Below, in pieces: positions 1-60,553 of a stretch of 64,000 nucleotides of DNA (the first letter of the stretch is position 1; each line of letters opens with the position of its first letter). The translations under genes and the position numbers were made by a program. The notes below the pieces were generated by a model. It saw nothing but the letters and a program-made list of their open reading frames with translations, did not search any database and was not told the DNA's origin. Source of the DNA: Spirochaetota bacterium (GTDB lineage Bacteria > Spirochaetota > GWB1-36-13 > JAKPDD01). The stretch covers positions 142,377 through 206,376 of the forward strand of contig JAKPDD010000032.1 of the NCBI GenBank assembly GCA_029552945.1. The letters run 5' to 3'.

Positions 1-782
1 TTTAGGTCTTTAATGCTAAGCAATATTTTTCTTTTATTTTTATCAATTTCTATAACTTTAGCTTTAATATTTTGACCAACTTTAAAGATTTTTTCCGGTT
101 CAACTCTATCCCATGATATATCACTACCCCTTATGAGAGCAGTCTCAATATCATCAATCGAAACTATAATACTTTTTGGATTTATTTTTAAAATTTTTGC
201 TCCTACTTCATCACCAACCTTAAGTTCACTATATAATTTTTCAACTTTTTTTTGCTTAACATCCTCAAGTATTGGTTTTCTTGATACAACAACATTAATT
301 TTTCCATTTTTACCTTCTTTAAGATCAGCAACCTTAAGTCTGAATAATCTTCCTTTATATTTTTCAGGATTCTCAACCTTATCAAGAGAAACTTGAGACA
401 ATGGCAAAAAAGCTTCAACAACACCATTTATTAAAACTTTATACCCACCTTTCACTAAATCAACAACTTTACCCTCAACTTCTCCATTGTTTTTATATGC
501 ATTTTTTATTTCTTCCAATGTCTTAATTTCGTTAGCCTTTTTATATGATACTTTTACATAACTCGGTCCTACTTTTTCCACATAAACTTCAATAGTATCT
601 CCCTCTTTTGGGATAAAATCAAATTCATTTATGTCAAGTCTTGTTTCAGACTTCGTCCCTATATCAAGCAATACTTCATCCTGAAATACTTTCAGGATTG
701 AAGTCTTAACTAAATTCCCTATTGATAGGGCTGAAGTCTCTCCAAGACTTTTTTCCATAAGTTCTTTAAAGTTTTCGGTCAT
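1..782 (-). CDS. rpsA: 30S ribosomal protein S1, N-terminal portion; the 3' end runs off the window start
   Basis: Minus-strand translation begins with ATG at 782-780 preceded by GAGAGGAAAA. The protein begins MTENFKELMEKSLGE...VKTSILKVFQDEVLLDIGTKSE, collinear with the S1 N-terminus and repeated S1 domains. It is absent from the ORF track because it is truncated. Confidence 0.85.
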   Translation of the reverse strand, partial: MTENFKELMEKSLGETSALSIGNLVKTSILKVFQDEVLLDIGTKSETRLDINEFDFIPKEGDTIEVYVEKVGPSYVKVSYKKANEIKTLEEIKNAYKNNGEVEGKVVDLVKGGYKVLINGVVEAFLPLSQVSLDKVENPEKYKGRLFRLKVADLKEGKNGKINVVVSRKPILEDVKQKKVEKLYSELKVGDEVGAKILKINPKSIIVSIDDIETALIRGSDISWDRVEPEKIFKVGQNIKAKVIEIDKNKRKILLSIKDL

Positions 783-961
783 TGAATTTTCCTCTCTAAC
801 ATAAAGTTTTTAAAAAAAATAAAATTTAATTGCTAAAATTTAATAAACTAAAACAAACCTAAGTATAAAATTATTTTAAAATATCACATAAAAATAAACT
901 ATAACACTAAAGTTTTAAAAGACTAAGTCGATCCTTTTGTAAAATTAATCAGGACTAAATA

Positions 962-1744
962 ATGATTATAAAAACAATCACACTTGCTATAATACAGGGA
1001 ATAACAGAGTTTTTACCCATTAGTAGTTCAGGGCATACAATAATATTTGGGGAAATATTGGGGTTAAGTACAGACTTCCTTATATTAAACATAATACTAC
1101 ATGCTGGAAGCCTTTTAGCAATAATTTTATTTTTCTTCAAAGATATAATTAACCTAATAAGATATTTTTCATACAAAAAAAACCCGCTAATTTACCATAT
1201 AATAATAGCAACAATACCAACAGCAATAATGGGTTTAATCGTAAAAAAATATTATAAAATAATGGAAAATACAATATTTGTATCAATAATGCTTATTATT
1301 ACAGGTTTGATATTGATTTCAACAAAGTTTTTAGCTAAAAATAAAGAAAAAAATATTAACTTTCTCTCATCACTAATAATAGGAATAGTTCAGGGACTTG
1401 CTACAATACCAGGAATATCAAGGTCAGGATCAACAATTTCAGTAGCTCTTATCCTCGGTTTAAAAAGAGAGGAATCTTTTAAGTTTTCATTCCTGATAGT
1501 AATACCAGCTATAATCGGAGCTATATTAATAGAAATATTTGAATATATAAATAAACTCAAAAATTCACAATATATTACACTCAATTTAGATATATACACT
1601 TATATTATAGGATTTATTGTCTCTTTTATAGTAAGTATATTATCCCTGAGTCTGTTAAAGATTGTTATAAAGAAAGAAAAAATACACCTTTTTGCATACT
1701 ACTGTTTCCTAGTTTCAGTAGCAGGACTAATAATTGGAGGATAA
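962..1744 (+). CDS. uppP: undecaprenyl-diphosphate phosphatase (BacA/UppP)
   Basis: 260 aa, polytopic membrane protein with the EFLPISSSGH signature and PGISRSG motif of UppP. Confidence 0.9.
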   Translation: MIIKTITLAIIQGITEFLPISSSGHTIIFGEILGLSTDFLILNIILHAGSLLAIILFFFKDIINLIRYFSYKKNPLIYHIIIATIPTAIMGLIVKKYYKIMENTIFVSIMLIITGLILISTKFLAKNKEKNINFLSSLIIGIVQGLATIPGISRSGSTISVALILGLKREESFKFSFLIVIPAIIGAILIEIFEYINKLKNSQYITLNLDIYTYIIGFIVSFIVSILSLSLLKIVIKKEKIHLFAYYCFLVSVAGLIIGG

Positions 1745-1746
1745 AG

Positions 1747-4140
1747 ATGCCTTATATAAAGGAGATAATAACATTAATTTTAAGCTCTTTTACATTTGTA
1801 TATATATTAAGTATATTATCATTCCACACAACATACAAAAATATATTATACTATCCAACACCAAATGGTGAAAATCTACTTGGGCATATTGGTTCTTATG
1901 TTGCATCAATAAGCTTTTTTATATTAGGGAAAACAGCGTATATACTTATTATCCCATTATTCCTTATTATTTTTGCTCTTGTTTTTGACAAAAAAAAATT
2001 AATAATATATTCAAGAAATATTTTAATTATTCTTTTTTTAATAAGCGGGTTTATTGGACTCTTTTCAAAAGAGTTTTATGGTGGAATTATAGGAGGTATA
2101 AGCGGTATACTTTTTAGAGAACTTTTTGGTTTTGTAGGGACTCTTCTTATATTGATATTATTAACACTTGCAGCACTTTCATTAATATCAGAAAAAATTA
2201 AGAGATCAATAATAAACCCTAAAATAATGATGTTTTATATCATCAATAAAATATTTCTTCATAATATAAATAAAAATCAGAGTAACACAGATAATCACAC
2301 AAATTATGAAGAAAGAAAAGAAGAAAATAAAAATATAATAGAAATAAAAGAGTATTGCTTTGAACAAGAAAAACCTGTTAAAAAAGAAAATGATTTATTA
2401 GATAAAGGAATATATAGTAATAATTATCAAGAAAGAGAAGAAAACTATATAGAATATTTAAATATAAAATCTGAAACTAAAAGTAATATAGACTCTAAAG
2501 TAGATAGATTATTAGAAGAAAATATTCATAATAATAAAACAGATGAAGAAAAAATAAAAAATCAAGATCAAGAAAAAAAAGATTTAACAGGTTTTTCAGA
2601 TAAAATTAATAGAGAATTAGAAGAAAATAACTATGAAATTAATGGAATAGATGATAAACATGAAATAACAGATAAAATAGATAATAGTGATAATAAAGAC
2701 ATATTTATAAATAATATTAAAGAAGACAATAAAAATATCGAATCCATATTAACAAAAGACTTTAAATTTCCTGAAATCTCCTTACTTAAGGATAGCCCAA
2801 AAAATTACAAAAAAGATGAGGAAGAAGAAAAAATTACAGTGGGCTTAAAACTGGTTGAGGTATTAAAAGAGTTTAATATAGAAGTAACACTTGAAAATAT
2901 AGTATCAGGGCCTGTAATAACAAGATACGAGATAGTTCCCCCAAAAGGTCTTAAATTAAGTAAGATAATAAGCCTTGAAGACAATATATCACTAGGGCTT
3001 GCCTCACATGAAAAAATAAGAATAGAAGCACCTGTGCCAGGTAAAAAAGTTGTTGGAATAGAGGTCCCCAATAAATATAGGGCATTAATTACACTCAAAG
3101 ATATGCTAAATGATCCTGAGTTTAAACCAGAAAATATGGCAATACCATTTACTTTAGGAAAAGATATAACGGGAAAATCACACTACACAGACATTTCAAA
3201 GATTCCCCACCTACTTATAGCAGGCTCAACAGGTTCAGGAAAAAGCGTATGCCTTAACTCACTTATAACAACAATCTTGTACACTAAAAAGCCAGATGAG
3301 GTTAAACTTATACTTGTTGACCCAAAAAGAGTTGAACTTAAATTATATGAAGGTATCCCACACCTTATAACACCAGTAATAAAAGAGCTATCAGATGCTA
3401 TAAACATGCTTAATTGGGCTGTATCCTATATGGAAGAAAGGTATAAAATCTTAGAATCATGTAATGTAAGAAATATAAAAACCTATAACCTTATAAATAA
3501 AGAAAAAATGCCTTATATACTGATTATAATTGATGAGTTTGCAGACTTTATAATAACAGGTAAAAAAGAGATAGAGGACCCAATAATAAGACTTGCTGCA
3601 ATGGCAAGAGCTGTGGGAATTCATTTAGTTCTAGCAACCCAAAGACCTTCAGCAGATATAATAACTAACCTTATAAAAGCTAATTTCCCTGGAAGAATAG
3701 CTTTTAAAGTTGCAACAAAACTTGAATCAAGAATAATACTTGATATAAATGGAGCTGAAAAATTATTGGGCAAAGGTGATATGCTCTATGCAAGTCCCAA
3801 CTCTTTATCAATAAAAAGATTACAATCACCATTAATATCAGATGAAGAGGTAAATGCTGTTACAAATTACTATAGGAACAACTATTCTCCAATATACTGG
3901 GATATCATAGAAGAAACTGAGAAAGAAGCTTCAAGCCCAACAGATGAACCACTATTTAACGAGGCTGTTAACATAATTTTAAGAGATAGAAAAGCATCAG
4001 CTTCATATTTACAGAGAAGACTTAAAATAGGATATAATAGAGCAGCAAGAATAATAGAAATGATGGAAGATATGGGGATAATAAGTCCATCCTATTCTGG
4101 TAAAAGGGAGATTTTAATAGAATCATGGAATGAGATTTAA
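1747..4140 (+). CDS. ftsK: DNA translocase FtsK/SpoIIIE
   Basis: N-terminal TM helices and a low-complexity linker, a Walker A motif (GSTGSGKS) in the motor domain, and a C-terminal gamma (winged-helix) domain. Confidence 0.9.
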   Translation: MPYIKEIITLILSSFTFVYILSILSFHTTYKNILYYPTPNGENLLGHIGSYVASISFFILGKTAYILIIPLFLIIFALVFDKKKLIIYSRNILIILFLISGFIGLFSKEFYGGIIGGISGILFRELFGFVGTLLILILLTLAALSLISEKIKRSIINPKIMMFYIINKIFLHNINKNQSNTDNHTNYEERKEENKNIIEIKEYCFEQEKPVKKENDLLDKGIYSNNYQEREENYIEYLNIKSETKSNIDSKVDRLLEENIHNNKTDEEKIKNQDQEKKDLTGFSDKINRELEENNYEINGIDDKHEITDKIDNSDNKDIFINNIKEDNKNIESILTKDFKFPEISLLKDSPKNYKKDEEEEKITVGLKLVEVLKEFNIEVTLENIVSGPVITRYEIVPPKGLKLSKIISLEDNISLGLASHEKIRIEAPVPGKKVVGIEVPNKYRALITLKDMLNDPEFKPENMAIPFTLGKDITGKSHYTDISKIPHLLIAGSTGSGKSVCLNSLITTILYTKKPDEVKLILVDPKRVELKLYEGIPHLITPVIKELSDAINMLNWAVSYMEERYKILESCNVRNIKTYNLINKEKMPYILIIIDEFADFIITGKKEIEDPIIRLAAMARAVGIHLVLATQRPSADIITNLIKANFPGRIAFKVATKLESRIILDINGAEKLLGKGDMLYASPNSLSIKRLQSPLISDEEVNAVTNYYRNNYSPIYWDIIEETEKEASSPTDEPLFNEAVNIILRDRKASASYLQRRLKIGYNRAARIIEMMEDMGIISPSYSGKREILIESWNEI

Positions 4141-4273
4141 AAAAATTAATTTAAATTCCAGACTTTAGATACTAACTAATAACAATATTTTTATAATAAA
4201 AGTCTTTATTTTAATGATCTAATTTAGAGTAATAAATTAAATTTTAAAAAAAAAATTTCATAAAAAGATTCAA

Positions 4274-5632
4274 GTGGAGAATCTAAAATTGCAATATTTT
4301 GGAAAAGAAACAGAAAAGGCAATTAAAAACTTTGGGAAAGGGTTATTACCCCCTGAGCTTATTAAAGCTTACGGAGAAGTCAAACTTGCTGTTCTTTCAG
4401 CTGTTCAGGAAATAGAAAAAAAGTATACCAAGGAAGAATGGGAAGCTTTACAAAAAACATGCTTTGAAGTTATAGAGAATAACCTTGATGAAAATTTCAT
4501 ACTTCCTTTACTTCAAGGAGGAGCTGGTACAAGTATAAATATGAACGTAAATGAGGTTATAGCAAATAGAGCTAACCAAATATTAGGAAAAGATAGATTT
4601 CATCCTATTGAAGATATAAATGTTTATCAATCAACAAATGATACTTTTCCTACTGCAGTAACAATAACTTTATATAGAAAATTGCTTGATACAGAAAAAC
4701 TTGTAATAAATCTGCAAGAAACACTTATAAAAAAAGAAAATCAGTTCAGTAAAATACTTATGACTGGAAGAACCGAAATGCAGGATGCTCTCCCAATAAC
4801 CTTAGGGCAGGTGTTCGCAAGTTGGGCAGGAATGATAGAAAGAGATAGATGGAGAATACATAAACTTAAAGAAAGAATAAGAGTTATACCGCTGGGGGGC
4901 ACTGCAATAGGAACCGGGTATCCAGCACCTTCAATAATTGTATTTGCATCTGAGAAATTTTTAAGAGAAATAACTACTCTACCCTTGTCAAGAAGCCAAA
5001 ATCTTCCAGATGAAGTTGCTAATCAGGACAAATGGTCTGAACTTGCTTCTGTAATAAAGATAATAGCTGAAAATCTTTATAAAATCACAGGGGACCTGTT
5101 ATTGTATACTTCCAGTTTTATTGATGAAATTAAACACCCTGATCTACAATACGGTTCAACAATAATGGCAGCAAAAACTAACCCTGTTATACTGGAATAT
5201 GTAAGGGGTTTATCCATCAGTATAAAAAATGAGTGTCTTAAAATATCTGAGTTTACATCAAATGGCCAACTTCAACTTAATCCATATCTACCTTTTATTT
5301 TAGAATCATTTTTAAGAGTATTTGATTATATTGAAAAATCCATAATTTCATTTATTGATAATTTTTTGAATCAAATTGAAATAAATAAAGAAAAAATTGA
5401 AGAAAATCTGGTAAAGTCTAATATACTATTAAATGGTTTAATAGGAATATTAGGATACCAAAAAGTAAAAGAAATATATATACTTGTTAAAGAGAAAAAG
5501 ACAACAAAAATCGCGGAAATAAAAAATATAATTAAAGAAAAAACTGATCTTACTTATGATGAAATAGAGTTTTATCTTGATCCTATTAATATCTCATCTT
5601 TTTTTAGACTATGGAGAAAACAAAATGATTAA
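4274..5632 (+). CDS. aspartate ammonia-lyase / class II fumarase superfamily lyase
   Basis: Conserved blocks of the aspartase/fumarase family: GGAGTSINMNVNEV, QSTNDTFPTA, TGRTEMQDALPITLGQ and the GS-x2-M-x2-K-x-N signature (GSTIMAAKTNP). The start is uncertain: GTG at 4274 has no SD, while TTG at 4289 has a GGAG RBS 9 nt upstream. The stop overlaps hydF by 8 nt. Confidence 0.75.
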   Translation: MENLKLQYFGKETEKAIKNFGKGLLPPELIKAYGEVKLAVLSAVQEIEKKYTKEEWEALQKTCFEVIENNLDENFILPLLQGGAGTSINMNVNEVIANRANQILGKDRFHPIEDINVYQSTNDTFPTAVTITLYRKLLDTEKLVINLQETLIKKENQFSKILMTGRTEMQDALPITLGQVFASWAGMIERDRWRIHKLKERIRVIPLGGTAIGTGYPAPSIIVFASEKFLREITTLPLSRSQNLPDEVANQDKWSELASVIKIIAENLYKITGDLLLYTSSFIDEIKHPDLQYGSTIMAAKTNPVILEYVRGLSISIKNECLKISEFTSNGQLQLNPYLPFILESFLRVFDYIEKSIISFIDNFLNQIEINKEKIEENLVKSNILLNGLIGILGYQKVKEIYILVKEKKTTKIAEIKNIIKEKTDLTYDEIEFYLDPINISSFFRLWRKQND

Positions 5633-6836
5633 TACACCTTTATCTGAACAAATAAGAATTATACTTTTTGGAATAAGAAATGCCGGAAAATCAAGCTTAA
5701 TGAATAATATAATGAATAATTATATATCCATAGTCTCAGAAATCCCTGGGACAACTACAGACCCAGTAACAAAATCAATGGAACTTTTACCACTTGGGCC
5801 AGTTGCTTTTACTGACACAGCTGGAATAGATGATGTAGGGACAATAGGAGAATTAAGAATAAAAAAAACTATTGAGTTTTTAAGCATTTCTGATATTGTG
5901 ATATTTGTAACACCTATTGACAAAAGTTTAACAGATATTGAAAAAGAGTTTATAAATCAGATGTTATCATCATCAAAACCATTTATTGTTGCTCTATCTT
6001 TTGCAGATAAAAAGCCTTCCCCTGAGAAAATAGAGTGGGCTCAAAAGTTTAAATATATTAAAATAAACAATAAAACAAAAGAGGGAATAGAAGAAATTAA
6101 AAAAGAAATTATAAATTTAGCAGATAAAATAGAAACCGAGATCCCTCCACTTGAAGGTATTGTAAAAGAAAATGATCTTATTATTCTTGTTGTACCAATC
6201 GATCTTGCTGCCCCAAAAGGAAGACTTATCCTCCCGCAGGTTGAAACAATAAGAGATGCATTAGACAAAGATTGTTGTGTAATGATAGTAAAAGAAAGAG
6301 AATTAAAAACATTTTATGATGCATCCAAAATAAAACCCAAAATAGTAATTACAGATAGTCAAGCATTTTCAAAAGTATCGTCAGATATACCAAAAGACCA
6401 GATGTTAACATCATTTTCAATATTATTTGCAAAAAAAAAGGGGGACCTTTCTCTTTTTGTAAAAGGTTTAAAACAACTTAATAAAATAAAACCAGGTTCT
6501 AAAGTATTAATACTTGAATCATGTCACCACCATCAACAGGCTGATGATATTGGTACTGTTAAAATACCAAGACTATTTAGACAAATGGTAGAAAGTAAAG
6601 TAGAGTTTGATTTTGCAAGAGAACTTCCTGACGAAAACAAAATAAAAGAATATTCACTTGCAATACACTGCGGTGGTTGTATGGTAAATAGAAAAAAAGT
6701 ACTATATAGAATAAGAAAATTAGAGGAAAATAGAGTCTTATCAACAAATTATGGTTTATTCCTTGCATGGGCTAATGGACTTTTACCAAGAGCACTTGAA
6801 CCGTTCCCATTTGAACATGAATTATATTCTATTTAA
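5625..6836 (+). CDS. hydF: [FeFe]-hydrogenase H-cluster maturation GTPase HydF
   Basis: N-terminal GTPase with G1 GIRNAGKSS and G3 DTAG, and a C-terminal FeS-binding CxH...HCxxC signature (SCHHH...AIHCGGC). Start moved to the ATG at 5625, which has a GGAG RBS 8 nt upstream; the longer ORF from 5577 overlaps the preceding gene. Confidence 0.8.
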   Translation: MINTPLSEQIRIILFGIRNAGKSSLMNNIMNNYISIVSEIPGTTTDPVTKSMELLPLGPVAFTDTAGIDDVGTIGELRIKKTIEFLSISDIVIFVTPIDKSLTDIEKEFINQMLSSSKPFIVALSFADKKPSPEKIEWAQKFKYIKINNKTKEGIEEIKKEIINLADKIETEIPPLEGIVKENDLIILVVPIDLAAPKGRLILPQVETIRDALDKDCCVMIVKERELKTFYDASKIKPKIVITDSQAFSKVSSDIPKDQMLTSFSILFAKKKGDLSLFVKGLKQLNKIKPGSKVLILESCHHHQQADDIGTVKIPRLFRQMVESKVEFDFARELPDENKIKEYSLAIHCGGCMVNRKKVLYRIRKLEENRVLSTNYGLFLAWANGLLPRALEPFPFEHELYSI

Positions 6837-6869
6837 TGTTAAAAAAATTATTTTAATTCATTAATAAAT

Positions 6870-6897
6870 AAATTACTATATAATTATATAGTAATTT
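6870..6897. promoter_or_regulatory. perfect 28-bp palindrome (AAATTACTATATAA|TTATATAGTAATTT) between hydF and metK
   Basis: Read directly: 14 nt and its exact reverse complement with no spacer, about 50 nt upstream of the metK GTG start. Candidate operator site or AT-only hairpin. Confidence 0.5.
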
Positions 6898-6946
6898 TAT
6901 ATTAAATTTAATTAATTAAAATACTAAAATCAGAAGGAGAGCAAAA

Positions 6947-8089
6947 GTGATAAGAAAAGGTATAATATCATCTGAATCAGTAACAGAAGGACACCCAGAT
7001 AAAATAGCTGACCAAATTTCAGATACTGTGCTTGATGAACTTCTTAAACAAGACGAATACTCAAGAGTTGCATGTGAAACAGTTGCAGGTCATGGTTTTA
7101 TACTACTAACCGGTGAGATAACAACAAAAGCTAACATAAATTATCCTGAAATTGTAAGAAATAAACTAAAAGAGATAGGTTATACACACCCAAAATATGG
7201 TTTAAGTGCTGACCACTGTGGTGTTATAGTCTCAATAAATAGACAGTCACCAGATATAGCAATGGGTGTTGACAAAGAAGGAGCAGGGGATCAGGGGATG
7301 ATGTTTGGGTTTGCAATTGATGAAACACCTGAACTTATGCCAATGCCAATATCATTAGCACATAAATTAACTTTAAGATTAAGAGATGCAAGAAAAAATA
7401 ATGAAGTTGATTTTTTAGGTCCTGATGGTAAGTCCCAAGTTTCAGTAAGATATGAAGATGGTAAACCAGTCTCTGTTGAAGCTGTTGTTATATCTACTCA
7501 ACACACTGAAGATATAACAATAGAAAAGTTAAGAGAATATGTTATGGATGAGATAATAAAGAAGGTGATACCTTCAAACCTTATAACGAAAAATACAAAA
7601 TATTTTATAAACCCTACCGGAAGATTTGTAATAGGGGGGCCTCAAGGAGATGCGGGCCTTACTGGTAGAAAAATAATTGTAGATACTTATGGTGGTTTTA
7701 GCAGACACGGAGGTGGGGCATTTTCAGGAAAAGACTCAACAAAAGTGGATAGGAGTGCTGCATATATGGCAAGATATGTTGCAAAAAACCTTGTTGCAGC
7801 TGGAATAGCAAATGCCTGTGAAGTACAGCTTGCTTATGCAATAGGAGTTGCAGAGCCAGTATCTATAATGATTGAAACATTTGGAACTAGCAATTTCGAT
7901 AATGAAAAAATAGAAAATATTGTAAGGAAAGTATTCCCATTAACTCCAAAAGGAATAATAGAACACCTGGGTTTAAGAAAACCAATATTTGCAAAAACAG
8001 CTGCATATGGGCATTTTGGTAGAGAACTCCCAGAATTCAGATGGGAAGCAAAAGATATGGTTGATAAGATAAAAGAACTATTAAAATAA
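6947..8089 (+). CDS. metK: S-adenosylmethionine synthetase
   Basis: N-terminus [18 protein letters not shown] and the GGGAFSGKD phosphate loop; collinear with MetK throughout. GTG start with a GGAGAG RBS. Confidence 0.95.
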
Positions 8090-8197
8090 TTTTAAATATA
8101 ATTTATTAAAAATCTATCACTTAAATTTTTGTTAAAAGATAAAAAATAATTAATTTTATATATCTAAAATTTTTTGTGAAAAAAATGGAGAAAAAAA

Positions 8198-8625
8198 TGA
8201 AGACATATATGAAGAAGAAAGAAGATGTAAAATTTAAATGGTATATTATTGATGCAAAAGATAAAGTTCTTGGAAGACTTGCAACTAAAATTGTTGAAAT
8301 TTTAAAAGGTAAAAATAGTCCAGACTATACACCACATATAGAATCTGGAAATGGTGTAATAGTAATCAATGCAAAAGAGGTTAAAGTAACCGGTAATAAA
8401 ATTAAAGACAAGATATATTACTGGCATAGTGGCCATCCAGGTGGAATAAAATCAATATCTTTCGGAGAAGCAATTAATAAAAACTACGAAATGCCTATTA
8501 CTAGAGCTGTTAAAGGAATGTTAGCAAAAAATAGAATGAGAGATCATTTGCTTACAAGGCTTAGGATCTTTCCAGGTCCTGAACATAATATGGAAGCACA
8601 AAAACCAGAAAAAATAGAAATCTAA
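8198..8625 (+). CDS. rplM: 50S ribosomal protein L13
   Basis: KWYIIDAKDKVLGRLATKIV matches the L13 N-terminus. ATG at 8198 follows GGAG by 7 nt; the ORF-track start at 8176 (GTG) is less likely. Confidence 0.9.
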
Positions 8626-8644
8626 ATAGAGCGAGGGTATTAAA

Positions 8645-9034
8645 GTGGAATTTGTATGGGCAACAGGTAGAAGAAAAACATCTATAGCAAGAGTAAGAAT
8701 AAAAAAAGGTAAAGGTATTATAAAAGTTAATGGATCAACTATTGAAGACTATTTTGTAAACAGAAAAGTATGGGTAGAAAAAGTTTATGCTCCATTAAAA
8801 GTTACTGATAATTTCGGTAAATATGATATATATATAAATGTACAGGGTGGTGGATTAACAGGACAGGCTGATGCTTGCTCCTTAGGAATTGCAAGAGCTC
8901 TTGTAAAAATTGATGAAACCAATAAAAGTGTATTAAGAAGAAATGGACTTTTAACAAGAGACCCAAGAATGGTAGAAAGAAAGAAATATGGTTTAAGAAA
9001 AGCAAGAAGAGCAAGACAGTACTCAAAAAGATAG
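8645..9034 (+). CDS. rpsI: 30S ribosomal protein S9
   Basis: TGRRKTSIARV near the N-terminus and the basic C-terminal tail LRKARRARQYSKR. Confidence 0.9.
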   Translation: MEFVWATGRRKTSIARVRIKKGKGIIKVNGSTIEDYFVNRKVWVEKVYAPLKVTDNFGKYDIYINVQGGGLTGQADACSLGIARALVKIDETNKSVLRRNGLLTRDPRMVERKKYGLRKARRARQYSKR

Positions 9035-9044
9035 TATTTCAAAA

Positions 9045-9070
9045 AAAAGAGGGGAAAATCCCTCTTTTAT
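9045..9070 (+). terminator. rho-independent terminator after rpsI
   Basis: GAGGGG-AAAAT-CCCCTC hairpin followed by TTTTATT. Confidence 0.6.
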
Positions 9071-9413
9071 TATATATATTTATCAAACTTATTTCATTAT
9101 ATAGAAAGCTTTATTTAAAATTAAATGTAGTTTTTTATATAAAAGTATAATTTATTTAAAGTTGATAAACTTTAGTTCCATTTATGTCATTATTTCTTCA
9201 ATTTCTATAAAATTTATAAGTAAAAATTTTTATTTTTTTACAGACCCATAGTAATTATAAGCCTCTGGTTTGTAGAATATAAAAAATATTAAATTCTTAT
9301 AATCCAGAGGATCTTGTTACTTTTTATAAGATTTATCTAAGATTTTTATAAAAAAAGAAAAATATTATAATCACTTATAGAAATTTATAAATCAACTTAC
9401 ATATTAAAAAACT

Positions 9414-9433
9414 TCCCCCTTTCTAAAAAGGGG
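9414..9433. terminator. bidirectional hairpin terminator at the 3' end of the liv operon
   Basis: CCCCCTTT-CTAA-AAAGGGGG hairpin. The minus-strand reading gives GGGGGAAGTTTTTT immediately after the livF stop, and the plus strand is followed by ATTTTATAT. Confidence 0.5.
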
Positions 9434-9444
9434 GATTTTATATA

Positions 9445-10278
9445 TTAATGTCCACCACCTAAATAAGCTTTTTTAATGTCTTCATTATTTAAAAGAACCT
9501 CAGCTTTATCACCTATTGTTACTCTACCTGTTTCAAGAACAAATCCAAAGTGTGATATTTTTAAAGCCTTTGTTGCATTTTGTTCTACAAGTAGAATTGT
9601 TGTACCAGTTTCTCTATTTAACATTTTAATAATTTCAAATATTTCCTTTACTATTATAGGTGCAAGACCAAGTGATGGCTCATCCAGTAGTAAAACTCTG
9701 GGTTTACCCATTAATCCTCTTCCTATTGCAAGCATCTGTTGCTCACCACCACTTAATGTGGCTGCGACCTGAGCCCTTCTCTGTTTTAGTTTAGGGAAAA
9801 AGGTATATATCATATCAAGAGACTTGCTTCTTTCAGCGTTTGATTGTTTAATAGAATAAGAACCTATCTTTAAGTTTTCTTCTACTGTCAGTTCAGGAAA
9901 AACCTGCCTTCCTTCAGGGACTTGAATTATTCCTTTTCTTGTTATTTTTTCAGGGCTCAAATTTGTTATATCCTCATCAAAAAACTCTATTTTACCTGCT
10001 GCTGCATGAACAAGTCCAGATATTACTCTTAGCGTTGTTGTTTTTCCTGCACCGTTAGCACCCAACAAAGAGACTATAGAACCTTCTGGAACACCAAAAG
10101 AAACCCTTCTTAAGGCCTGGATTTTTCCATAAAATGCGTCTATATTGCTTATCTTTAGAGCAAGTTTTTGTTCATTAACACCTTCTAACTTTTTAGCCCT
10201 TGATATTAATTCAGGCTTAACTTCAATTTTACTCCAGTCTATCTTTTCATCTATTGCAACATTATTTAAATCAGCCAT
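9445..10278 (-). CDS. livF: branched-chain amino acid ABC transporter ATP-binding protein LivF, with an N-terminal extension of about 35 aa
   Basis: Walker A GANGAGKTT and the LSGGEQQ signature; the YGKIQAL block is typical of LivF. Confidence 0.8.
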   Translation of the reverse strand: MADLNNVAIDEKIDWSKIEVKPELISRAKKLEGVNEQKLALKISNIDAFYGKIQALRRVSFGVPEGSIVSLLGANGAGKTTTLRVISGLVHAAAGKIEFFDEDITNLSPEKITRKGIIQVPEGRQVFPELTVEENLKIGSYSIKQSNAERSKSLDMIYTFFPKLKQRRAQVAATLSGGEQQMLAIGRGLMGKPRVLLLDEPSLGLAPIIVKEIFEIIKMLNRETGTTILLVEQNATKALKISHFGFVLETGRVTIGDKAEVLLNNEDIKKAYLGGGH

Positions 10279-10279
10279 T

Positions 10280-11077
10280 TTATTCCTCCTCAGTTCCTAA
10301 ATATGCTTCAATAACAGCAGGGTTATTTTGAACCTCTGCTGGTTTTCCTTCAGCTATTTGTTTACCAAAGCTTAACACATATATATACTCTGATATATCC
10401 ATTACAAGACTCATATCATGTTCAACTACAAGCAATGTTATTCCCATTTCATCTCTTATTTTCCTTAATACTAGTGAAAGCTCTTTCGTTTCTTTATTAT
10501 TAAGCCCTGCTGCTGGCTCATCAAGCATTAAAAACTTTGGTTTAGTTATAAGTGCCCTTGCAAGTTCAACAAGTTTTCTTGTACCATAAGGAAGTATACT
10601 TACAAATAGGTTTTCAATACCTCTTATCCCCAATATTTCTAAAACTTTTAAAGCTTCTTGGGTTGCTTCTTTTTCAACCTTTTTTGTGGAAGGAAGATAT
10701 AATATATCAGAGAAAAAGGATGCAAAACCACCAATTACAGGTAAATTGACAGGTTTTATTTTTGTATGTTGAGCAACAAGAAGATTATTTAGTACTGTCA
10801 TATTATCAAATAGTTCAAGGTTCTGAAATGATCTTGCCATGCCAAGTTTAACTATCTCATGAGGTTCATATTTTAACAGGTCATGACCATTAAACCTAAG
10901 TTCTCCCTCAGTAGGTTCATATATTCTTGTAACAACATTAAAAAACGTTGATTTACCAGCACCATTAGGACCAATTAGTGATACTATTGACCCCTCTTCT
11001 ATTTTTATACTTACATTATCAAGGGCTCTCAAACCCCCAAATTGCATAACAAGTTCTTTAACTTCTAATAAAGCCAT
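10280..11077 (-). CDS. livG: branched-chain amino acid ABC transporter ATP-binding protein LivG
   Basis: QFGGLRALDNVS, GPNGAGKST, and a LivG-type C-terminus. Confidence 0.8.
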   Translation of the reverse strand: MALLEVKELVMQFGGLRALDNVSIKIEEGSIVSLIGPNGAGKSTFFNVVTRIYEPTEGELRFNGHDLLKYEPHEIVKLGMARSFQNLELFDNMTVLNNLLVAQHTKIKPVNLPVIGGFASFFSDILYLPSTKKVEKEATQEALKVLEILGIRGIENLFVSILPYGTRKLVELARALITKPKFLMLDEPAAGLNNKETKELSLVLRKIRDEMGITLLVVEHDMSLVMDISEYIYVLSFGKQIAEGKPAEVQNNPAVIEAYLGTEEE

Positions 11078-11094
11078 AACAAACTCCTTTCCTT

Positions 11095-12243
11095 TTATTT
11101 TTTAACAAATCCAGATTTCTTCTGCATAATCTTAAGTTTAAACTGATAAAGCATATATACAATACCTTTAGGAGCAAATATTATCATAAGTATAACAGCT
11201 ATACCCATTATAGCAAGTGCCAAAGCCTGATATTTTTGAGGCAATATTGTTTTTATAATTTTCATATCAAGTAATTGATAAAGAGTAGCACCTATTATTG
11301 ATCCCTGTATAGTACCTACCCCACCTATAACTATCATAGCTAATACATACAAAGATACAGTAAGCATAAAGCTAGCTTCATCAACTGTACCTATTGTTAT
11401 CGCAAATATACCCCCCGCAATACCTGCTATAAAAGCACTTAAACCAAATGCTATGTTTTTATATAAAGCTATATTAACACCTAAAGTCCTTGCTGCAACT
11501 TCACTATCTCTTATACCACCTAATGCTCTTCCAACTTTTGTTTTCAAGAGGTTCCTTACCATAAGCACAATAAGATATAAAACCAATAAAGTAATAAAAA
11601 ACCCAGCTATGGCTGGTATGTTTGATGCAATATCTTGTAAATAGTTAAAAATAAAAGGTTTTGTTCCACTAGTTAGACTTACATAGTCCCAATAAGCTAA
11701 CTTTTCTCTTAATGCATAGTTTATACTATCTACCATTGAAGTTACAGTATACTTTATAGGAACAGTAGCTCCGGGGAACATATGTTTAAGTTCATTTTTA
11801 ATTATGTTTTCTACAACTATATGCAAGCCAAGAGTAGCGATACCAAGGAAGTGCCCTTTTAATCTTAATATAGGGGTACCTATAATAAATGCAAGTATTG
11901 ATACAGAAATTCCGCCCAGTATAATAGAAATAAGTATTGGGACACCAGCTTTTACACTCAATATAGCAGTAGCATAAGCACCAAGAGCATAAAAAGCAGC
12001 ATGTCCAAGTGATATCTGACCCGCATTACCTAATAACAGGTTAAGCCCCATAGCTAGAATAGAATATAATAGTGCAGAGTTTAATGCAGAAAGCCAACTT
12101 GTAGCAGTAAAAGGTAATGTTATAACAAATAAAAAAGCTAATAACTTATAGGTTTTTTTAGTAGATGGAGTGTCTTTTATAAAAGCCATAAGAAATAAGA
12201 CAACTCCAATAATAAGCCAAATCCAAACTAATATAGCACTCAT
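11095..12243 (-). CDS. livM: branched-chain amino acid ABC transporter permease LivM
   Basis: Polytopic permease with a LivM-like conserved core (GQISLGHAAF...GAY). Confidence 0.75.
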   Translation of the reverse strand: MSAILVWIWLIIGVVLFLMAFIKDTPSTKKTYKLLAFLFVITLPFTATSWLSALNSALLYSILAMGLNLLLGNAGQISLGHAAFYALGAYATAILSVKAGVPILISIILGGISVSILAFIIGTPILRLKGHFLGIATLGLHIVVENIIKNELKHMFPGATVPIKYTVTSMVDSINYALREKLAYWDYVSLTSGTKPFIFNYLQDIASNIPAIAGFFITLLVLYLIVLMVRNLLKTKVGRALGGIRDSEVAARTLGVNIALYKNIAFGLSAFIAGIAGGIFAITIGTVDEASFMLTVSLYVLAMIVIGGVGTIQGSIIGATLYQLLDMKIIKTILPQKYQALALAIMGIAVILMIIFAPKGIVYMLYQFKLKIMQKKSGFVKK

Positions 12244-14726: not shown

Positions 14727-16202
14727 TTAATTTGTTTTATGAAAAATTATTTCAAATTTTATATTAGGATAATCCATATTTAAAGTACCATAAGTTTTCT
14801 GATACTTCTTAACAATCTCCAAAAACCTATCATTTCCCAAAAACGGGTGATTACCATAGCCAAGATCAAGATAAAACTCAACCTGACCTTTTTTTAAATC
14901 AGCTATTGATCTCTGATATTCCTTTTGTGTTACTATTGGGACATCTGACATTTTTATAAATTTTATTATCTGTTCAGGACTATTTGATATCAATAAATAA
15001 TCTTTAAATATAGTAAAGAAAGGCATCTTTATACTTGGTGCAAAAAGTGATTTCAAGATACCTATTATTCCAGGAAGTTCAATAGCTGTTATTTCTATAT
15101 TATTAACAACTTTTTTTTCACCAATAAAGTTTGTAAAAACTTTCAAGAATTTATCTTTATCCTTGACCTCAACAATAAATACTGGCTCATCATTTAATAT
15201 AACACTACCTATATTTTGTCCAATCCATGAAAAAAAAAGGTCTTCAAATTCCTGTTCACTTAACCTCTTAGCAACACCAGTAGCCATAACAAGCCTGTCA
15301 AATAAATCTGGATAATCCTTTAATATAACTACCAAATACCTGTAAAGATTTTGAAAATCATTAAGTGATAGTGATACAAATGCTTCAGACCTTGCCGGTA
15401 TAAAATCAGAAAGATTTGAACTACCCATCTCTAAAGAAAGTAATTTCTCGTATACCTTTTGTTTATAGGTCTGAGGATTTTTAGAAATAATATCAAGTTC
15501 AAGTTTTATAAATTCTTCTTCAAAAAATAGGCTTATTGTTCCATAATCGATTTGCTGAGTTATTGGCAATAAAAATTCAAGTTGAGGGTAAAAAGATATT
15601 AAATCCTTAATAAGGTTATGTGGCATAAAAAAAGAAAATATATCACCTCTTGGTTTAATAGAAATATCTTCTTTATCTTCCATATATATATTAGCTTTTG
15701 CAGCAAGCAGAGCTTTCAAAGTGGGGCTTATTATCAAGAGATTCCTTTTTTTAGATAAAAACCCCAAAGTTTCATTTCTATTTTTTATTATTAATGCATC
15801 TTCATCCATTTTTGACAATTCATTATTATATTCAAGATAAATACCTTCTTTATTCAAAAACATATCCTTTAAAATAAGAGCAAGACTTAATAGCCCCCTA
15901 TAATATTTTGTATCAATTATTATTATAGGCCCTTCTGCAAGTTTTGCAGCAACTATCTGTATATTAGGTATTATTGGAATAAATTTTTCAAGTGGTTTAA
16001 TAAATGGAAAATTATTTTTAAGTATATCTTTATTTGTTTTAAATATTTTCTTAGGCTCTTTAATAGCAATAAAGGTCTGAACATAAGGAGGCAATGCTTT
16101 TTTGTAAGAGAAATTAGTTAACAAACAAAACACAAAATATATAGACATAATAAAAAAGAATATTACCAGACTATACTTTATAAACTTCTTCATTATAATC
16201 AC
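14727..16202 (-). CDS. hypothetical membrane-anchored protein (N-terminal TM helix, about 460-aa soluble part)
   Basis: Long ORF with coding-like composition and an N-terminal hydrophobic segment; no motif I can name. The 3' end overlaps the start of the radical SAM gene upstream. Confidence 0.45.
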   Translation of the reverse strand: MIIMKKFIKYSLVIFFFIMSIYFVFCLLTNFSYKKALPPYVQTFIAIKEPKKIFKTNKDILKNNFPFIKPLEKFIPIIPNIQIVAAKLAEGPIIIIDTKYYRGLLSLALILKDMFLNKEGIYLEYNNELSKMDEDALIIKNRNETLGFLSKKRNLLIISPTLKALLAAKANIYMEDKEDISIKPRGDIFSFFMPHNLIKDLISFYPQLEFLLPITQQIDYGTISLFFEEEFIKLELDIISKNPQTYKQKVYEKLLSLEMGSSNLSDFIPARSEAFVSLSLNDFQNLYRYLVVILKDYPDLFDRLVMATGVAKRLSEQEFEDLFFSWIGQNIGSVILNDEPVFIVEVKDKDKFLKVFTNFIGEKKVVNNIEITAIELPGIIGILKSLFAPSIKMPFFTIFKDYLLISNSPEQIIKFIKMSDVPIVTQKEYQRSIADLKKGQVEFYLDLGYGNHPFLGNDRFLEIVKKYQKTYGTLNMDYPNIKFEIIFHKTN

Positions 16203-17091
16203 TACCCTGAATAATATTTTTTTCTTTTAAAAATATATCTAACATTTGTTTCTTATTCAAATTTTCTTTAGGTGCAACTATATAACCAGGATTTGTAGTG
16301 TTATAAAGTCTTTGAATAATTATTGCAGGAGAAAGAATTTTAAGTGCTTCGCCTAAAATACCTAAATAATCCTGAAAAATCATAATTTCTATTTTCCCTT
16401 CATAATATTCTTTTTCAAATTGAGTATTTTTTACTATTTCAAGTTGGTGAAACTTAATAGCATCTGGTTTAAGCCTATTAATCTCTTTTACAGTATTTAT
16501 CATCATTTCTTTATTCTCACCAGGCAATCCAAAAATTACATGAAAACATACATAACAATCCCTGACTCTTTCTCTTAATTTATAATAACCATTTTTAAAC
16601 TCTTCATAAGTATGCCCTCTATTTATTCTTTTCAAAGTAGTATCATAAATAGATTCAAGCCCAAGCTCAATCCAAAGCATTGTTTTTTTTGAAATTTCAC
16701 TTAACAAATCAAGAACATCTTCTGGGAGACAATCAGCCCTTGTGCCTATAGAAATACCTAATATATCTTTCTCTTCTAATGCCTCACAATACAACTTTTT
16801 TAAAACTGAAACATTTGCATATGTATTTGTAAAAGATTGAAAATAAGCTATAAAACCTTTTGGTTTCCTACTTTTAAGTCTCTCTTTCCCAAGTCTTATC
16901 TGTTCTTTAACACTTTCTCTTGTCCTTGATCCAGAAAATGAAGAGTTATTACAAAAATAACATCCGCCAAATCCTTTACTACCATCTCTATTAGGACATG
17001 TAAAACCTGCATCTATACTTATTTTATAAACCGAGCCACCAAACTTTTTTTTAAGAAAAGATGAGAAAGAATAGTACCTATTTTCAAACAT
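16171..17091 (-). CDS. radical SAM protein, TIGR01212 (YhcC-like) family
   Basis: TCPNRDGSKGFGGCYFC cysteine motif near the N-terminus, characteristic of this family. Confidence 0.75.
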   Translation of the reverse strand: MFENRYYSFSSFLKKKFGGSVYKISIDAGFTCPNRDGSKGFGGCYFCNNSSFSGSRTRESVKEQIRLGKERLKSRKPKGFIAYFQSFTNTYANVSVLKKLYCEALEEKDILGISIGTRADCLPEDVLDLLSEISKKTMLWIELGLESIYDTTLKRINRGHTYEEFKNGYYKLRERVRDCYVCFHVIFGLPGENKEMMINTVKEINRLKPDAIKFHQLEIVKNTQFEKEYYEGKIEIMIFQDYLGILGEALKILSPAIIIQRLYNTTNPGYIVAPKENLNKKQMLDIFLKEKNIIQGSDYNEEVYKV

Positions 17092-17296
17092 GTTTTTATA
17101 AGCCTTTTTTATTTTTTAAAATTTAAATCTTAAGAAATTTAAATGATTTATCTAAAAAATTTTTAAATTAATTTAGATTAAAAAATAATTACTCACTTAT
17201 AGTGGATTTATAACTTCTAACTGAATTAAACTATTAGTTAAAGCTTAATTTATGAATCAAAATTAAGATACTGCTTAAATAGAAATAAATTATTTT

Positions 17297-40646: not shown

Positions 40647-40699
40647 AGTAGGCCTCCTTTAAAAACTAAAAAATTTTTGTGATAAAAATTTTATAAAAA

Positions 40700-55928: not shown

Positions 55929-56041
55929 TTTATACTCCCTACTTTATTTTAAAAAGTGAAATAGAAAAGTTAATGATAAAATTATAAAATTTTAATATTA
56001 AATTTATCTAAATTAATTTCTTTATTTATAAAGGGTAAAAA

Positions 56042-58919: not shown

Positions 58920-59955
58920 TATACAGAGTAAACTTATTGTTGAACCTGCTCCTCATATTAATCACAGAGATTCTGTACCTAAAATAATGTGGGGAGTTTT
59001 CATAAGCCTTGTACCTTCTGCTGTATGGTCTGTCTATTTTTTTGGTATACCAGCTCTTACAATAATTCTTATTTCTGTAATAACATGTATGATCACTGAG
59101 CTAATATTTAACATACTAAAAAAAACACCTTTAACAATATGGGATGGTAGTGCAGCAGTAACAGGAATACTCTTTGCCTTTACTTTGCCTGCTTATGTGC
59201 CTCTTTATGTACCAATAATAGGAAGCATATTTGCTATAGCTGTAGTAAAACAACTATTTGGAGGGCTAGGTTATAATATTATGAATCCTGCTCTTGCTGC
59301 AAGGGTATTTGTAATGTTTTCATGGCCAACACTACTTACCGCAAACAAGTATTTTTTACCTACAACTTCCCCTGAATCATTAGGAATAAACTTTAATATT
59401 ATATCAGGTGCAACTCCTATGCATCTATTAAAAGAAGTTGTACACACTGGTAAAATAGATAACTATTATGATGCATGGTCTCTTATTCTAGGGAAAACAC
59501 CTGGTGCTATCGGTGAGGTCTCAGTATTATTTTTAACAATAGGGGCTTTATATCTTTTTAAGAAAAAATATATAACTTATCACATACCTTTAAGTTTCAT
59601 ATTAACAGTAGTAATTTTAACATTCATATATGGGCTAGCAAGAGGTATCAGTATTAATCCTGAGTATAGTTTATTGAAAAACTCTCTCCTTTACTCATAT
59701 CTTCATATAATAAGTGGGGGTCTTATACTTGGTGCCTTTTTTATGTCAACAGATATGGTTACAACACCACTTACCAAAAAAGGAGAATTAATTGTAGGAG
59801 TTGGTTTAGGTATTTTAACCTTTATAATAAGAATTTTTGGTTCATATCCAGAAGGGGTCATGTTCTCAATCCTCTTAATGGAACTTGTAGTACCATTAAT
59901 AGACAGAAGTATTAAACCTAAAATATATGGTTGGGGTAAATATGAAACAAAATAA
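58900..59955 (+). CDS. rnfD: Rnf complex subunit D
   Basis: Polytopic membrane protein with the NqrB/RnfD conserved core (FFMSTDMVTTP); GGTGGAG RBS. Confidence 0.85.
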   Translation: MQIKKSNIQSKLIVEPAPHINHRDSVPKIMWGVFISLVPSAVWSVYFFGIPALTIILISVITCMITELIFNILKKTPLTIWDGSAAVTGILFAFTLPAYVPLYVPIIGSIFAIAVVKQLFGGLGYNIMNPALAARVFVMFSWPTLLTANKYFLPTTSPESLGINFNIISGATPMHLLKEVVHTGKIDNYYDAWSLILGKTPGAIGEVSVLFLTIGALYLFKKKYITYHIPLSFILTVVILTFIYGLARGISINPEYSLLKNSLLYSYLHIISGGLILGAFFMSTDMVTTPLTKKGELIVGVGLGILTFIIRIFGSYPEGVMFSILLMELVVPLIDRSIKPKIYGWGKYETK

Positions 59956-60541: not shown

Positions 60542-60553
60542 GAGGTGTATATT

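What the first reader, a model, noticed from the sequence alone, without database searches (positions are those of the whole stretch)
4274..8089. Aspartase/fumarase-family lyase gene overlapping hydF, followed by metK
The lyase-family gene ends 8 nt inside the start of hydF, whose start has its own GGAG RBS. metK lies 110 nt downstream, and hydE, hydG and hydA are not in the window. This linkage suggests the lyase homologue has a dedicated role in H-cluster maturation, for example supplying ammonia or nitrogen for the dithiomethylamine bridge, rather than central metabolism. metK supplies SAM to the radical-SAM maturases. The lyase is N-terminally shorter than canonical aspartases but keeps the GS-x2-M-x2-K-x-N loop.
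Basis: partly seen in the sequence, partly recalled or inferred. Interest (0 to 1): 0.55.

Follow-up and report, generated by a model that had tools for sequence, protein, structure and literature searches.

The report
Aspartase-like lyase coupled to hydrogenase maturase HydF
An aspartase-family gene overlaps hydF, the assembly factor for the iron-iron hydrogenase cofactor, and this pairing recurs across many bacterial phyla, but it was published in 2024 as a likely ammonia source for the cofactor's nitrogen bridge, so this locus is another, somewhat divergent, example of a known arrangement.

Summary
A Lyase_1 (aspartase/fumarase superfamily) gene, most likely starting at TTG 4289 rather than GTG 4274, ends 8 nt inside a bona fide hydF (TIGR03918, 495 bits against a cutoff of 326). 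metK follows after 110 nt. The window holds no hydE, hydG or hydA.

The lyase-hydF linkage is strongly conserved. Of 80 species genomes carrying the closest lyase homologues, 62 have hydF, hydE or hydG within 10 kb. The lyase stop and hydF start overlap in 36 of 53 cases. The hyd-linked lyases form a clade separate from E. coli-type AspA and keep every aspartase-type catalytic residue.

The functional idea is not new. The gene's position in hyd clusters was noted in 2012 and 2016. Pagnier et al. (JBC 2024) showed in vitro that aspartate plus E. coli AspA supplies the dithiomethylamine nitrogen, and reported the aspA-hydF association. No hyd-linked lyase itself has been assayed.

The metK linkage is not conserved, even in relatives 66-73% identical, and looks coincidental.

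The spirochaete version is a derived subclade. It has lost the N-terminal hairpin, has a GSTIMAAKTNP loop, and carries Glu at the AspB-His188 position.

Verdict: real, a new member of a known kind, modest interest.

The parts
4289..5632 (+). hyd-cluster-associated aspartase-family lyase, 447 aa. An alternative GTG start at 4274 is less likely.
   Evidence: Pfam Lyase_1 at 190.8 bits. The best NCBIfam hit is the AspA subfamily PRK12273, at 346.6 bits against a cutoff of 510. P0001 is 100% identical and 447 aa. The AF2 model has pLDDT 87.5, and Foldseek gives TM 0.86-0.89 to aspartase AspB.
4276..4279 (+). GGAG ribosome-binding site, 9 nt upstream of the TTG 4289 start
   Evidence: Read directly from the sequence.
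4514..4558 (+). Conserved region 1, QGGAGTSINMNVNEV. This is the aspartase type, not the fumarase QTGSGTQ type.
   Evidence: Alignment with E. coli AspA, E. coli FumC and 80 homologues.
4628..4654 (+). Conserved region 2, QSTNDTFPT. This is the aspartase S-T-N-D type, against fumarase S-S-N-D.
4766..4795 (+). GRTEMQDALP. Thr162 is conserved. Glu163 sits at the position of AspB His188, E. coli AspA Gln191 and FumC His188.
   Evidence: Glu occurs in all 14 spirochaete-subclade members. Across the hyd-linked clade the position is Q in 38 and E in 37.
5153..5185 (+). SS loop GSTIMAAKTNP. The catalytic Ser290, Lys296 and Asn298 are kept. Relative to GSSIMPGKVNP it carries S-to-T, P-to-A, G-to-A and V-to-T changes.
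5613..5616 (+). GGAG ribosome-binding site of hydF, inside the 3' end of the lyase gene
5625..6836 (+). hydF, the [FeFe]-hydrogenase H-cluster maturation GTPase and scaffold, 403 aa. Its start overlaps the lyase stop by 8 nt.
   Evidence: TIGR03918 at 494.9 bits (cutoff 325.55). Pfam MMR_HSR1, HydF_dimer and HydF_tetramer.
5670..5693 (+). HydF P-loop (G1), GIRNAGKS
6522..6680 (+). HydF [4Fe-4S] ligand motif: C300-x-H302 ... H348-C349-x-x-C352
   Evidence: C300, H302, C349 and C352 are invariant in 57 HydFs.
6947..8089 (+). metK (SAM synthetase). A neighbour, not part of the conserved module.
   Evidence: TIGR01034 at 585.7 bits. The adjacency is not conserved. It is followed by rplM and rpsI and then a terminator at 9045-9068.

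Best explanation
The lyase and hydF form a translationally coupled two-gene module of the [FeFe]-hydrogenase maturation system.

Shown here:
- The lyase belongs to a distinct, hyd-cluster-associated clade of the aspartase/fumarase superfamily.
- It keeps the full aspartase-type catalytic set.
- Its pairing with hydF is conserved across many phyla.

Inferred:
- The lyase most likely deaminates L-aspartate to fumarate plus ammonium.
- It is made together with HydF, so the ammonium is available where the T-protein and lipoyl-H-protein system builds the aminomethyl donor. HydF uses that donor to install the NH bridgehead of the dithiomethylamine ligand on the [2Fe] precursor.
- The enzymatic activity of this clade rests on residue conservation only.
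- The use of the ammonium for the bridge rests on published in vitro work with E. coli AspA.

metK is an unrelated housekeeping neighbour.
For: - Gene identities are secure: HydF is well above its equivalog cutoff, and the lyase has the Lyase_1 domain and an aspartase fold.
- Linkage: 58 of 80 species genomes with the closest lyase homologues have hydF within 10 kb, in nearly all cases immediately downstream of the lyase. 62 of 80 have hydF, hydE or hydG within 10 kb. Typical orders are (TM1266)-hydG-hydE-lyase-hydF and hydG-lyase-hydF-hydE.
- Translational coupling: 36 of 53 lyase-stop/hydF-start junctions overlap (-4 nt in 18 cases, -8 nt in 9), and 48 of 53 lie within 30 nt.
- In relatives 66-73% identical, the pair is kept intact while the flanking genes differ.
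- Phylogeny: E. coli AspA groups with four unlinked loci. The remaining sequences form a hyd-linked clade with 90/100 NJ bootstraps, counting trees with or without L058.
- Active site: the aspartase-diagnostic QGGAGTS, QSTND and NPV motifs, the catalytic Ser of the SS loop, and its Lys and Asn are invariant in all 75 clade members.
- Literature: 15N from aspartate plus E. coli AspA enters the dithiomethylamine ligand in a defined maturation system. aspA is reported to lie almost always next to hydF, and ammonium stimulates the HydF GTPase (PMC11736057). The role is included in the 2025 maturation scheme (PMC12501116).
Against: - No hyd-linked lyase has been assayed. The published experiment used housekeeping E. 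coli AspA, and free NH4+ works equally well in vitro.
- The protein scores below every NCBIfam AspA and FumC cutoff.
- This spirochaete subclade has lost the N-terminal hairpin, altered the otherwise near-universal M-P-G of the SS loop to M-A-A, and carries Glu at the position that contacts the amino group.
- Many hydrogenase-bearing organisms have no hyd-linked lyase (PMC4794192), so it is accessory rather than essential.
- About 12 clade members are not hyd-linked within the DNA available.
- hydE, hydG and hydA of this genome were not located.
Confidence: 0.62

Rival explanations
1. The lyase is dedicated to hydrogenase maturation but not as a plain aspartase. It could cleave or form another C-N bond, as other superfamily members do with N-substituted aspartates. 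It could hand ammonia directly to HydF or the T-protein within a complex. Or its ammonium could mainly serve as the monovalent cation that activates the HydF GTPase.
For: It forms a distinct clade scoring below all AspA cutoffs. There are clade-specific substitutions, for example Arg or Lys at window residue 235 in 72 of 75 members, against Pro or Gln in AspA-type sequences. Position 163 is Glu or Gln. The tight translational coupling suggests stoichiometric co-production. Ammonium is reported to stimulate the HydF GTPase (PMC11736057).
Against: All residues that bind and deaminate aspartate in AspB and AspA are conserved, and the pocket signature is aspartase-type. No lyase-Hyd fusion protein appears among the 150 best cluster representatives. 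There is no direct evidence for a complex.
Confidence: 0.22
2. The lyase is an ordinary housekeeping aspartase or fumarase of central metabolism that happens to lie next to hydF.
For: The module sits among housekeeping genes here: uppP and ftsK upstream, metK, rplM and rpsI downstream. The fold and catalytic residues are those of a normal aspartase.
Against: The adjacency and the stop/start overlap are conserved across many phyla, including Spirochaetota, Bacteroidota, Atribacterota, Planctomycetota and Bacillota. The pair moves as a unit. The sequences are phylogenetically separate from E. coli-type AspA. The fumarase-diagnostic residues are absent.
Confidence: 0.05
3. The lyase is a catalytically dead structural partner or chaperone of HydF in the derived spirochaete lineage.
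For: It has lost the N-terminal hairpin, altered the SS loop (MPG to MAA) and sits on a long branch. The HydFs of the same lineage have a degenerate G4 motif.
Against: The catalytic Ser290, Lys296, Asn298, Thr81, Ser115, Thr116, Asn117 and Thr162 are invariant in all 14 subclade members. That argues for selection on catalysis.
Confidence: 0.05

Closest known systems
aspA genes embedded in hyd (hydE/F/G) clusters, as described by Pagnier et al., J Biol Chem 2024 (PMC11736057) and noted earlier in Pelobacter carbinolicus (PMC3543383), Sulfurospirillum cavolei and Desulfovibrio vulgaris (PMC4794192)
   Same: A Lyase_1-family gene lies immediately next to hydF. The inferred role is the same: ammonium supply for the dithiomethylamine bridge. 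In wider relatives the cluster orders are also the same, hydG-(hydE)-lyase-hydF.
   Different: Here only the lyase-hydF pair is present, amid housekeeping genes, with hydG, hydE and hydA elsewhere. The protein belongs to a derived Spirochaetota subclade with no N-terminal hairpin, a GSTIMAAKTNP loop and Glu163. The papers treat these genes simply as aspA. They neither separated them phylogenetically from housekeeping AspA nor assayed one.
Aspartate ammonia-lyase: AspB of Bacillus sp. YM55-1 (PDB 1J3U, 3R6V) and E. coli AspA (1JSW)
   Same: The three-domain fold matches (TM 0.86-0.89). The aspartase-type substrate-binding motifs and the catalytic SS-loop serine are shared.
   Different: Identity is only about 32%. 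The protein scores below the TIGR00839 and PRK12273 cutoffs. It lacks about 20 N-terminal residues. Pfam FumaraseC_C is not detected. Glu replaces His188 (AspB) or Gln191 (E. coli AspA). The gene context is dedicated rather than metabolic.
Class II fumarase FumC (E. coli 1FUO)
   Same: Same superfamily and fold, with about 32% identity.
   Different: The fumarase-diagnostic residues are replaced by the aspartase versions: GSGTQ, SSND, His188 and NPT. The protein scores far below the TIGR00979 cutoff.

Membership tests
HydF (TIGR03918, [FeFe]-hydrogenase maturation GTPase) | Equivalog HMM score above the curated cutoff | tested here: met
   494.9 bits against 325.55, covering the full length of the profile.
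HydF (TIGR03918, [FeFe]-hydrogenase maturation GTPase) | Three-domain architecture: GTPase, dimerisation and tetramerisation/FeS domains | tested here: met
   MMR_HSR1 at aa 11-124, HydF_dimer at 177-273, HydF_tetramer at 278-393.
HydF (TIGR03918, [FeFe]-hydrogenase maturation GTPase) | C-terminal CxHx(~45)HCxxC [4Fe-4S] ligand motif | tested here: met
   C300-H-H302 ... H348-C349-G-G-C352. The Cys and His residues are invariant in 57 HydFs.
HydF (TIGR03918, [FeFe]-hydrogenase maturation GTPase) | Canonical GTPase motifs G1 (GxxNxGKS), G3 (DxxG) and G4 (NKxD) | tested here: inconclusive
   G1 (GIRNAGKS) and G3 (DTAG) are present. G4 reads S-F-A-D instead of N-K-x-D, as in all 10 spirochaete relatives. 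Whether nucleotide specificity is affected is not known.
HydF (TIGR03918, [FeFe]-hydrogenase maturation GTPase) | Co-occurrence with hydE, hydG and hydA in the same genome | not testable with these tools
   They are absent from the 64 kb window. HydG candidates looked up came from other samples. Related Brevinematales and Spirochaetota genomes do carry hydG and hydE.
Aspartase/fumarase superfamily (Pfam Lyase_1) | Lyase_1 domain and the three-domain helical fold | tested here: met
   PF00206 at 190.8 bits. AF2 pLDDT 87.5. Foldseek TM 0.83-0.89 to aspartases and fumarases.
Aspartase/fumarase superfamily (Pfam Lyase_1) | SS-loop signature GSSxMPxKxN with the catalytic serine | tested here: met
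   GSTIMAAKTN. Ser290, Met293, Lys296 and Asn298 are kept. Pro and Gly are replaced by Ala-Ala.
Aspartate ammonia-lyase AspA (TIGR00839 / PRK12273) | HMM score above the curated cutoff | tested here: not met
   TIGR00839 scores 260.8 against 681.2. PRK12273 scores 346.6 against 510. PRK14515 scores 234.3 against 876.
Aspartate ammonia-lyase AspA (TIGR00839 / PRK12273) | Aspartase-specific substrate-pocket residues (QGGAGTS, QSTND, NPV) rather than the fumarase versions | tested here: met
   All are present and invariant in the clade.
Aspartate ammonia-lyase AspA (TIGR00839 / PRK12273) | N-terminal RxExDxLGxxxVP hairpin and a recognisable FumaraseC_C C-terminal domain | tested here: not met
   The hairpin is absent in the window protein and the spirochaete subclade, and present in most other hyd-linked lyases. 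PF10415 is not detected, although the model shows a helical C-terminal domain.
Aspartate ammonia-lyase AspA (TIGR00839 / PRK12273) | L-aspartate to fumarate plus NH4+ activity | not testable with these tools
   Needs an enzyme assay. No member of the hyd-linked clade was found to have been characterised.
Class II fumarase FumC (TIGR00979) | HMM cutoff and the fumarase-type residues GSGTQ, SSND, His188 and NPT | tested here: not met
   247.4 bits against 664.75. All four diagnostic sites carry the aspartase version or Glu.
hyd-operon-associated ammonia-lyase (Pagnier et al. 2024) | A Lyase_1 gene in the immediate neighbourhood of hydF, conserved in related genomes | tested here: met
   There is an 8-nt overlap here. 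hydF is adjacent in 58 of 80 related genomes, and the closest relatives keep the pair.

The most novel reading that the evidence does not exclude
The hyd-linked 'AspA-like' proteins are a functionally distinct, uncharacterised fourth accessory maturation factor. They would bind HydF and deliver nitrogen directly, or act on a substrate other than free aspartate. The spirochaete subclade (truncated N-terminus, MAA loop, Glu163), together with its HydF carrying a degenerate G4 motif, would then be a co-evolved variant of that complex.
Probability: 0.15. Interest if true: 0.6.

Novelty: new member of a known kind. Interest (0 to 1): 0.27.

Why it matters
The origin of the NH bridgehead of the H-cluster was long an open point in [FeFe]-hydrogenase biosynthesis. 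The ammonia-lyase answer was published in 2024, so this locus does not open the question. It adds three things. First, a clean example of the lyase-hydF pair as a self-contained, translationally coupled module. Second, evidence that hyd-linked lyases form their own clade rather than being housekeeping AspA. Third, a reminder that no member of that clade has been tested biochemically. For annotation, such 'lyase family protein' genes next to hydF can reasonably be labelled as hyd-associated aspartase-like lyases.

Tried and rejected
- metK as part of the module: rejected. No metK lies within 10 kb of the lyase in any of 80 other genomes or in relatives 66-73% identical.
- A SAM riboswitch or other RNA element upstream of metK: no Rfam match at E <= 1 in 1-12000. 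The AT-only hairpin at 6870-6897 is not significant (z = -1.5).
- Lyase-HydF or other lyase-Hyd fusion proteins as Rosetta-stone evidence: none found. Apparent 2.7 kb ORFs in GC-rich loci were artefacts of stop-to-stop reading. Among the 150 best cluster representatives, the long proteins are fusions with cNMP-binding, peptidase S51 or malic-enzyme domains on canonical aspartases or fumarases.
- Locating this genome's hydG: a search seeded with a Brevinematales HydG found hits only in other samples, so I stopped.
- Fumarase reading: rejected on the diagnostic residues.
- The reciprocal count (the fraction of hydF genes that have a lyase) was not repeated.
Full report
**Observation**

The region holds three same-strand genes.

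- Lyase: the ORF is open from GTG 4274 to the TAA at 5630-5632. Gene callers on identical public contigs start it at TTG 4289, giving 447 aa (P0001, 100% identical). A GGAG lies 9 nt upstream of that TTG, and homologues begin at the same point. I therefore take 4289 as the start.
- hydF: it starts at ATG 5625, 8 nt before the end of the lyase stop codon, behind a GGAG at 5613-5616.
- metK: it begins at 6947, 110 nt after hydF. It is followed by rplM and rpsI and then the first convincing terminator, at 9045-9068.
- Upstream on the same strand are uppP and ftsK.
- No Rfam family matches in 1-12000.

**Identities**

- HydF is unambiguous. TIGR03918 scores 494.9 bits against a cutoff of 325.55. 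Pfam finds the GTPase, HydF_dimer and HydF_tetramer domains. The CxH...HCxxC cluster ligands are present.
- MetK is unambiguous: TIGR01034 at 585.7 bits.
- The lyase has only the Lyase_1 domain in Pfam. It falls below every NCBIfam cutoff: AspA subfamily PRK12273 at 346.6 against 510, TIGR00839 at 260.8 against 681, and FumC TIGR00979 at 247.4 against 665. This is why public records call it a 'lyase family protein'.
- Its closest solved relative is aspartase AspB of Bacillus sp. YM55-1, at 215 bits. An AlphaFold model (pLDDT 87.5) superposes on AspB with TM 0.86-0.89.
- The organism is an uncultured, low-GC (about 28%) Spirochaetota bacterium whose closest lyase homologues come from Brevinematia MAGs. 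The window also carries flagellar genes and an rnf cluster.
- No hydE, hydG, hydA or TM1266 homologue is in the window.

**Is the linkage meaningful?**

I scanned one genome per species with an alignment of lyase homologues. This returned 80 loci from many phyla. Seeds for HydE and HydG were confirmed against TIGR03956 and TIGR03955.

- 58 loci have a clear hydF, 29 have hydE and 33 have hydG within 10 kb. In all, 62 of 80 have at least one. I did not count a weak 110-bit GTPase hit in L020.
- The usual orders are (TM1266)-hydG-hydE-lyase-hydF and hydG-lyase-hydF-hydE. Thirteen loci also carry a HydA-type gene.
- Where hydF follows the lyase, the stop and start overlap in 36 of 53 cases (-4 nt in 18, -8 nt in 9). 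In 48 of 53 the two genes are within 30 nt.
- In relatives 66-73% identical to the window protein, the lyase-hydF pair is intact but the flanking genes differ. One has ftsK and uppP in another arrangement. Two have a response regulator upstream and cheW downstream.
- Other close relatives have TM1266-hydG-hydE-lyase with no hydF following. An ancestral hydG-hydE-lyase-hydF cluster therefore seems to have been split at different points, and the lyase stays with one half or the other.
- metK occurs next to the lyase only in the window's own genome.

**Phylogeny and active site**

- In a neighbour-joining tree rooted on E. coli FumC, E. coli AspA groups with four loci that have no hyd genes. Two further unlinked loci branch near the base. 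All other sequences form one clade that is overwhelmingly hyd-linked.
- Bootstrap support for that clade, with or without the single basal sequence L058, is 90/100. The Spirochaetota subclade that includes the window protein has 100/100.
- With at least 3 kb of flank on both sides, linkage is 50/57 inside the clade and 0/4 outside it (p = 6e-4).
- Sampling of housekeeping AspA is thin, because the scan kept only the 80 best matches. Monophyly should be rechecked with broader sampling and a likelihood method.
- All residues that define an aspartase rather than a fumarase are invariant in the clade: QGGAGTS, QSTND, the Thr of GRT, the SS-loop Ser, Lys and Asn, and NPV.
- The position equivalent to AspB His188 or E. 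coli AspA Gln191 is Gln or Glu in equal numbers in the clade. It is Glu in every member of the spirochaete subclade.
- That subclade is derived in other ways too. It has lost the N-terminal RxExDxLGxxxVP hairpin that most other hyd-linked lyases keep. In 8 of 14 members the SS loop reads M-A-A instead of M-P-G.

**Comparison with what is known**

- The presence of an 'aspartate ammonia-lyase' gene inside hyd clusters was noted in the Pelobacter carbinolicus genome paper (2012; PMC3543383). It was noted again for Sulfurospirillum cavolei and Desulfovibrio vulgaris (2016; PMC4794192), with its significance called unknown.
- Pagnier et al. (J Biol Chem 2024; PMC11736057) showed that 15N from aspartate enters the dithiomethylamine ligand when E. 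coli AspA is added to a defined maturation system.
- The 2025 maturation scheme includes this step (PMC12501116).
- The paper identified neighbours by Pfam domain and used E. coli AspA. It did not separate hyd-linked lyases from housekeeping AspA, and it did not assay one.

**Mechanism**

- Most likely (about 0.6): the lyase is an active aspartase, co-translated with HydF, that supplies ammonium locally. The T-protein and H-protein system needs that ammonium to make the aminomethyl donor for the bridgehead NH.
- What is shown: gene identities, conserved coupling, clade separation and conservation of catalytic residues.
- What is inferred: the enzyme's substrate and where the ammonium ends up.
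- Main rival (about 0.2): the clade has a more specialised role, such as a different C-N substrate, direct hand-over within a complex, or activation of the HydF GTPase by ammonium.
- A chance neighbour or a pseudoenzyme is unlikely, at about 0.05 each.

**Verdict**

This is a new, somewhat divergent member of a known arrangement, and interest is modest.

Noticed in passing
window 5997-6008 (HydF aa 125-128); L007, L008, L010-L016: The HydF G4 motif NKxD reads S-F-A-D here and [ST][FHC]x[DA] in all 10 Spirochaetota relatives; it is N-K in about 45 of 57 HydFs aligned. The same lineage carries the N-terminally truncated lyase, which could reflect co-divergence of the pair.
   Followed up: partly
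window 6870-6897: A perfect 28-nt AT-only palindrome, AAATTACTATATAA/TTATATAGTAATTT, lies in the hydF-metK spacer. It could be a weak hairpin or an operator. Its folding energy is not significant (z = -1.5).
   Followed up: partly
L004:433-759, L005:5376-5735, L010, L011, L088, L089 and others: A small TM1266-family 'iron-only hydrogenase system regulator' gene (TIGR03959, 106 bits) sits directly upstream of hydG in 12 of the related loci. It is absent from the window.
   Followed up: partly
L004, L005, L088, L089 versus the window, L090-L092: Among close relatives the hyd cluster is split at different points: TM1266-hydG-hydE-lyase without hydF in some, lyase-hydF alone in others. The lyase stays with one half or the other.
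   Followed up: partly
window residue 235 of the lyase (nt 4991-4993): Arg or Lys occupies this position in 72 of 75 hyd-clade lyases, against Pro or Gln in E. coli-type AspA. Asn238 (against Asp) and Leu334 (against Glu) differ likewise. These are candidate clade-specific surface or interface residues.
   Followed up: no
window 57558-61258: An rnfC-rnfD-rnfG-rnfE cluster (ferredoxin:NAD+ oxidoreductase) lies downstream of leuA (56039-57580). It fits a ferredoxin-based anaerobic metabolism. The following 150-aa ORF (61233-61682) gave no hit at E <= 1e-15, so rnfA and rnfB were not confirmed.
   Followed up: partly
window 35835-40658 (- strand): A 1608-aa ORF has an N-terminal Ser/Thr kinase domain and a long region resembling the TOMM kinase/cyclase fusion.
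   Followed up: no
window 16174-17115 (- strand): The only radical-SAM-type protein found among the window ORFs profile-scanned is the tRNA-modification enzyme MnmL/YtqA (TIGR01212, 297 bits). It is not a Hyd maturase.
   Followed up: yes
P0255 (1420 aa), P0340, P0342, P0339, P0373: More distant aspartase/fumarase relatives occur fused to cyclic-nucleotide-binding domains, peptidase S51 or a malic-enzyme NAD domain. P0255 has two Lyase_1 stretches plus cNMP-binding domains.
   Followed up: partly
L009:5510-6496: In one close relative that lacks hyd genes nearby, the gene after the lyase is a 329-aa radical-SAM-like ORF with only weak HydE similarity (52 bits).
   Followed up: no
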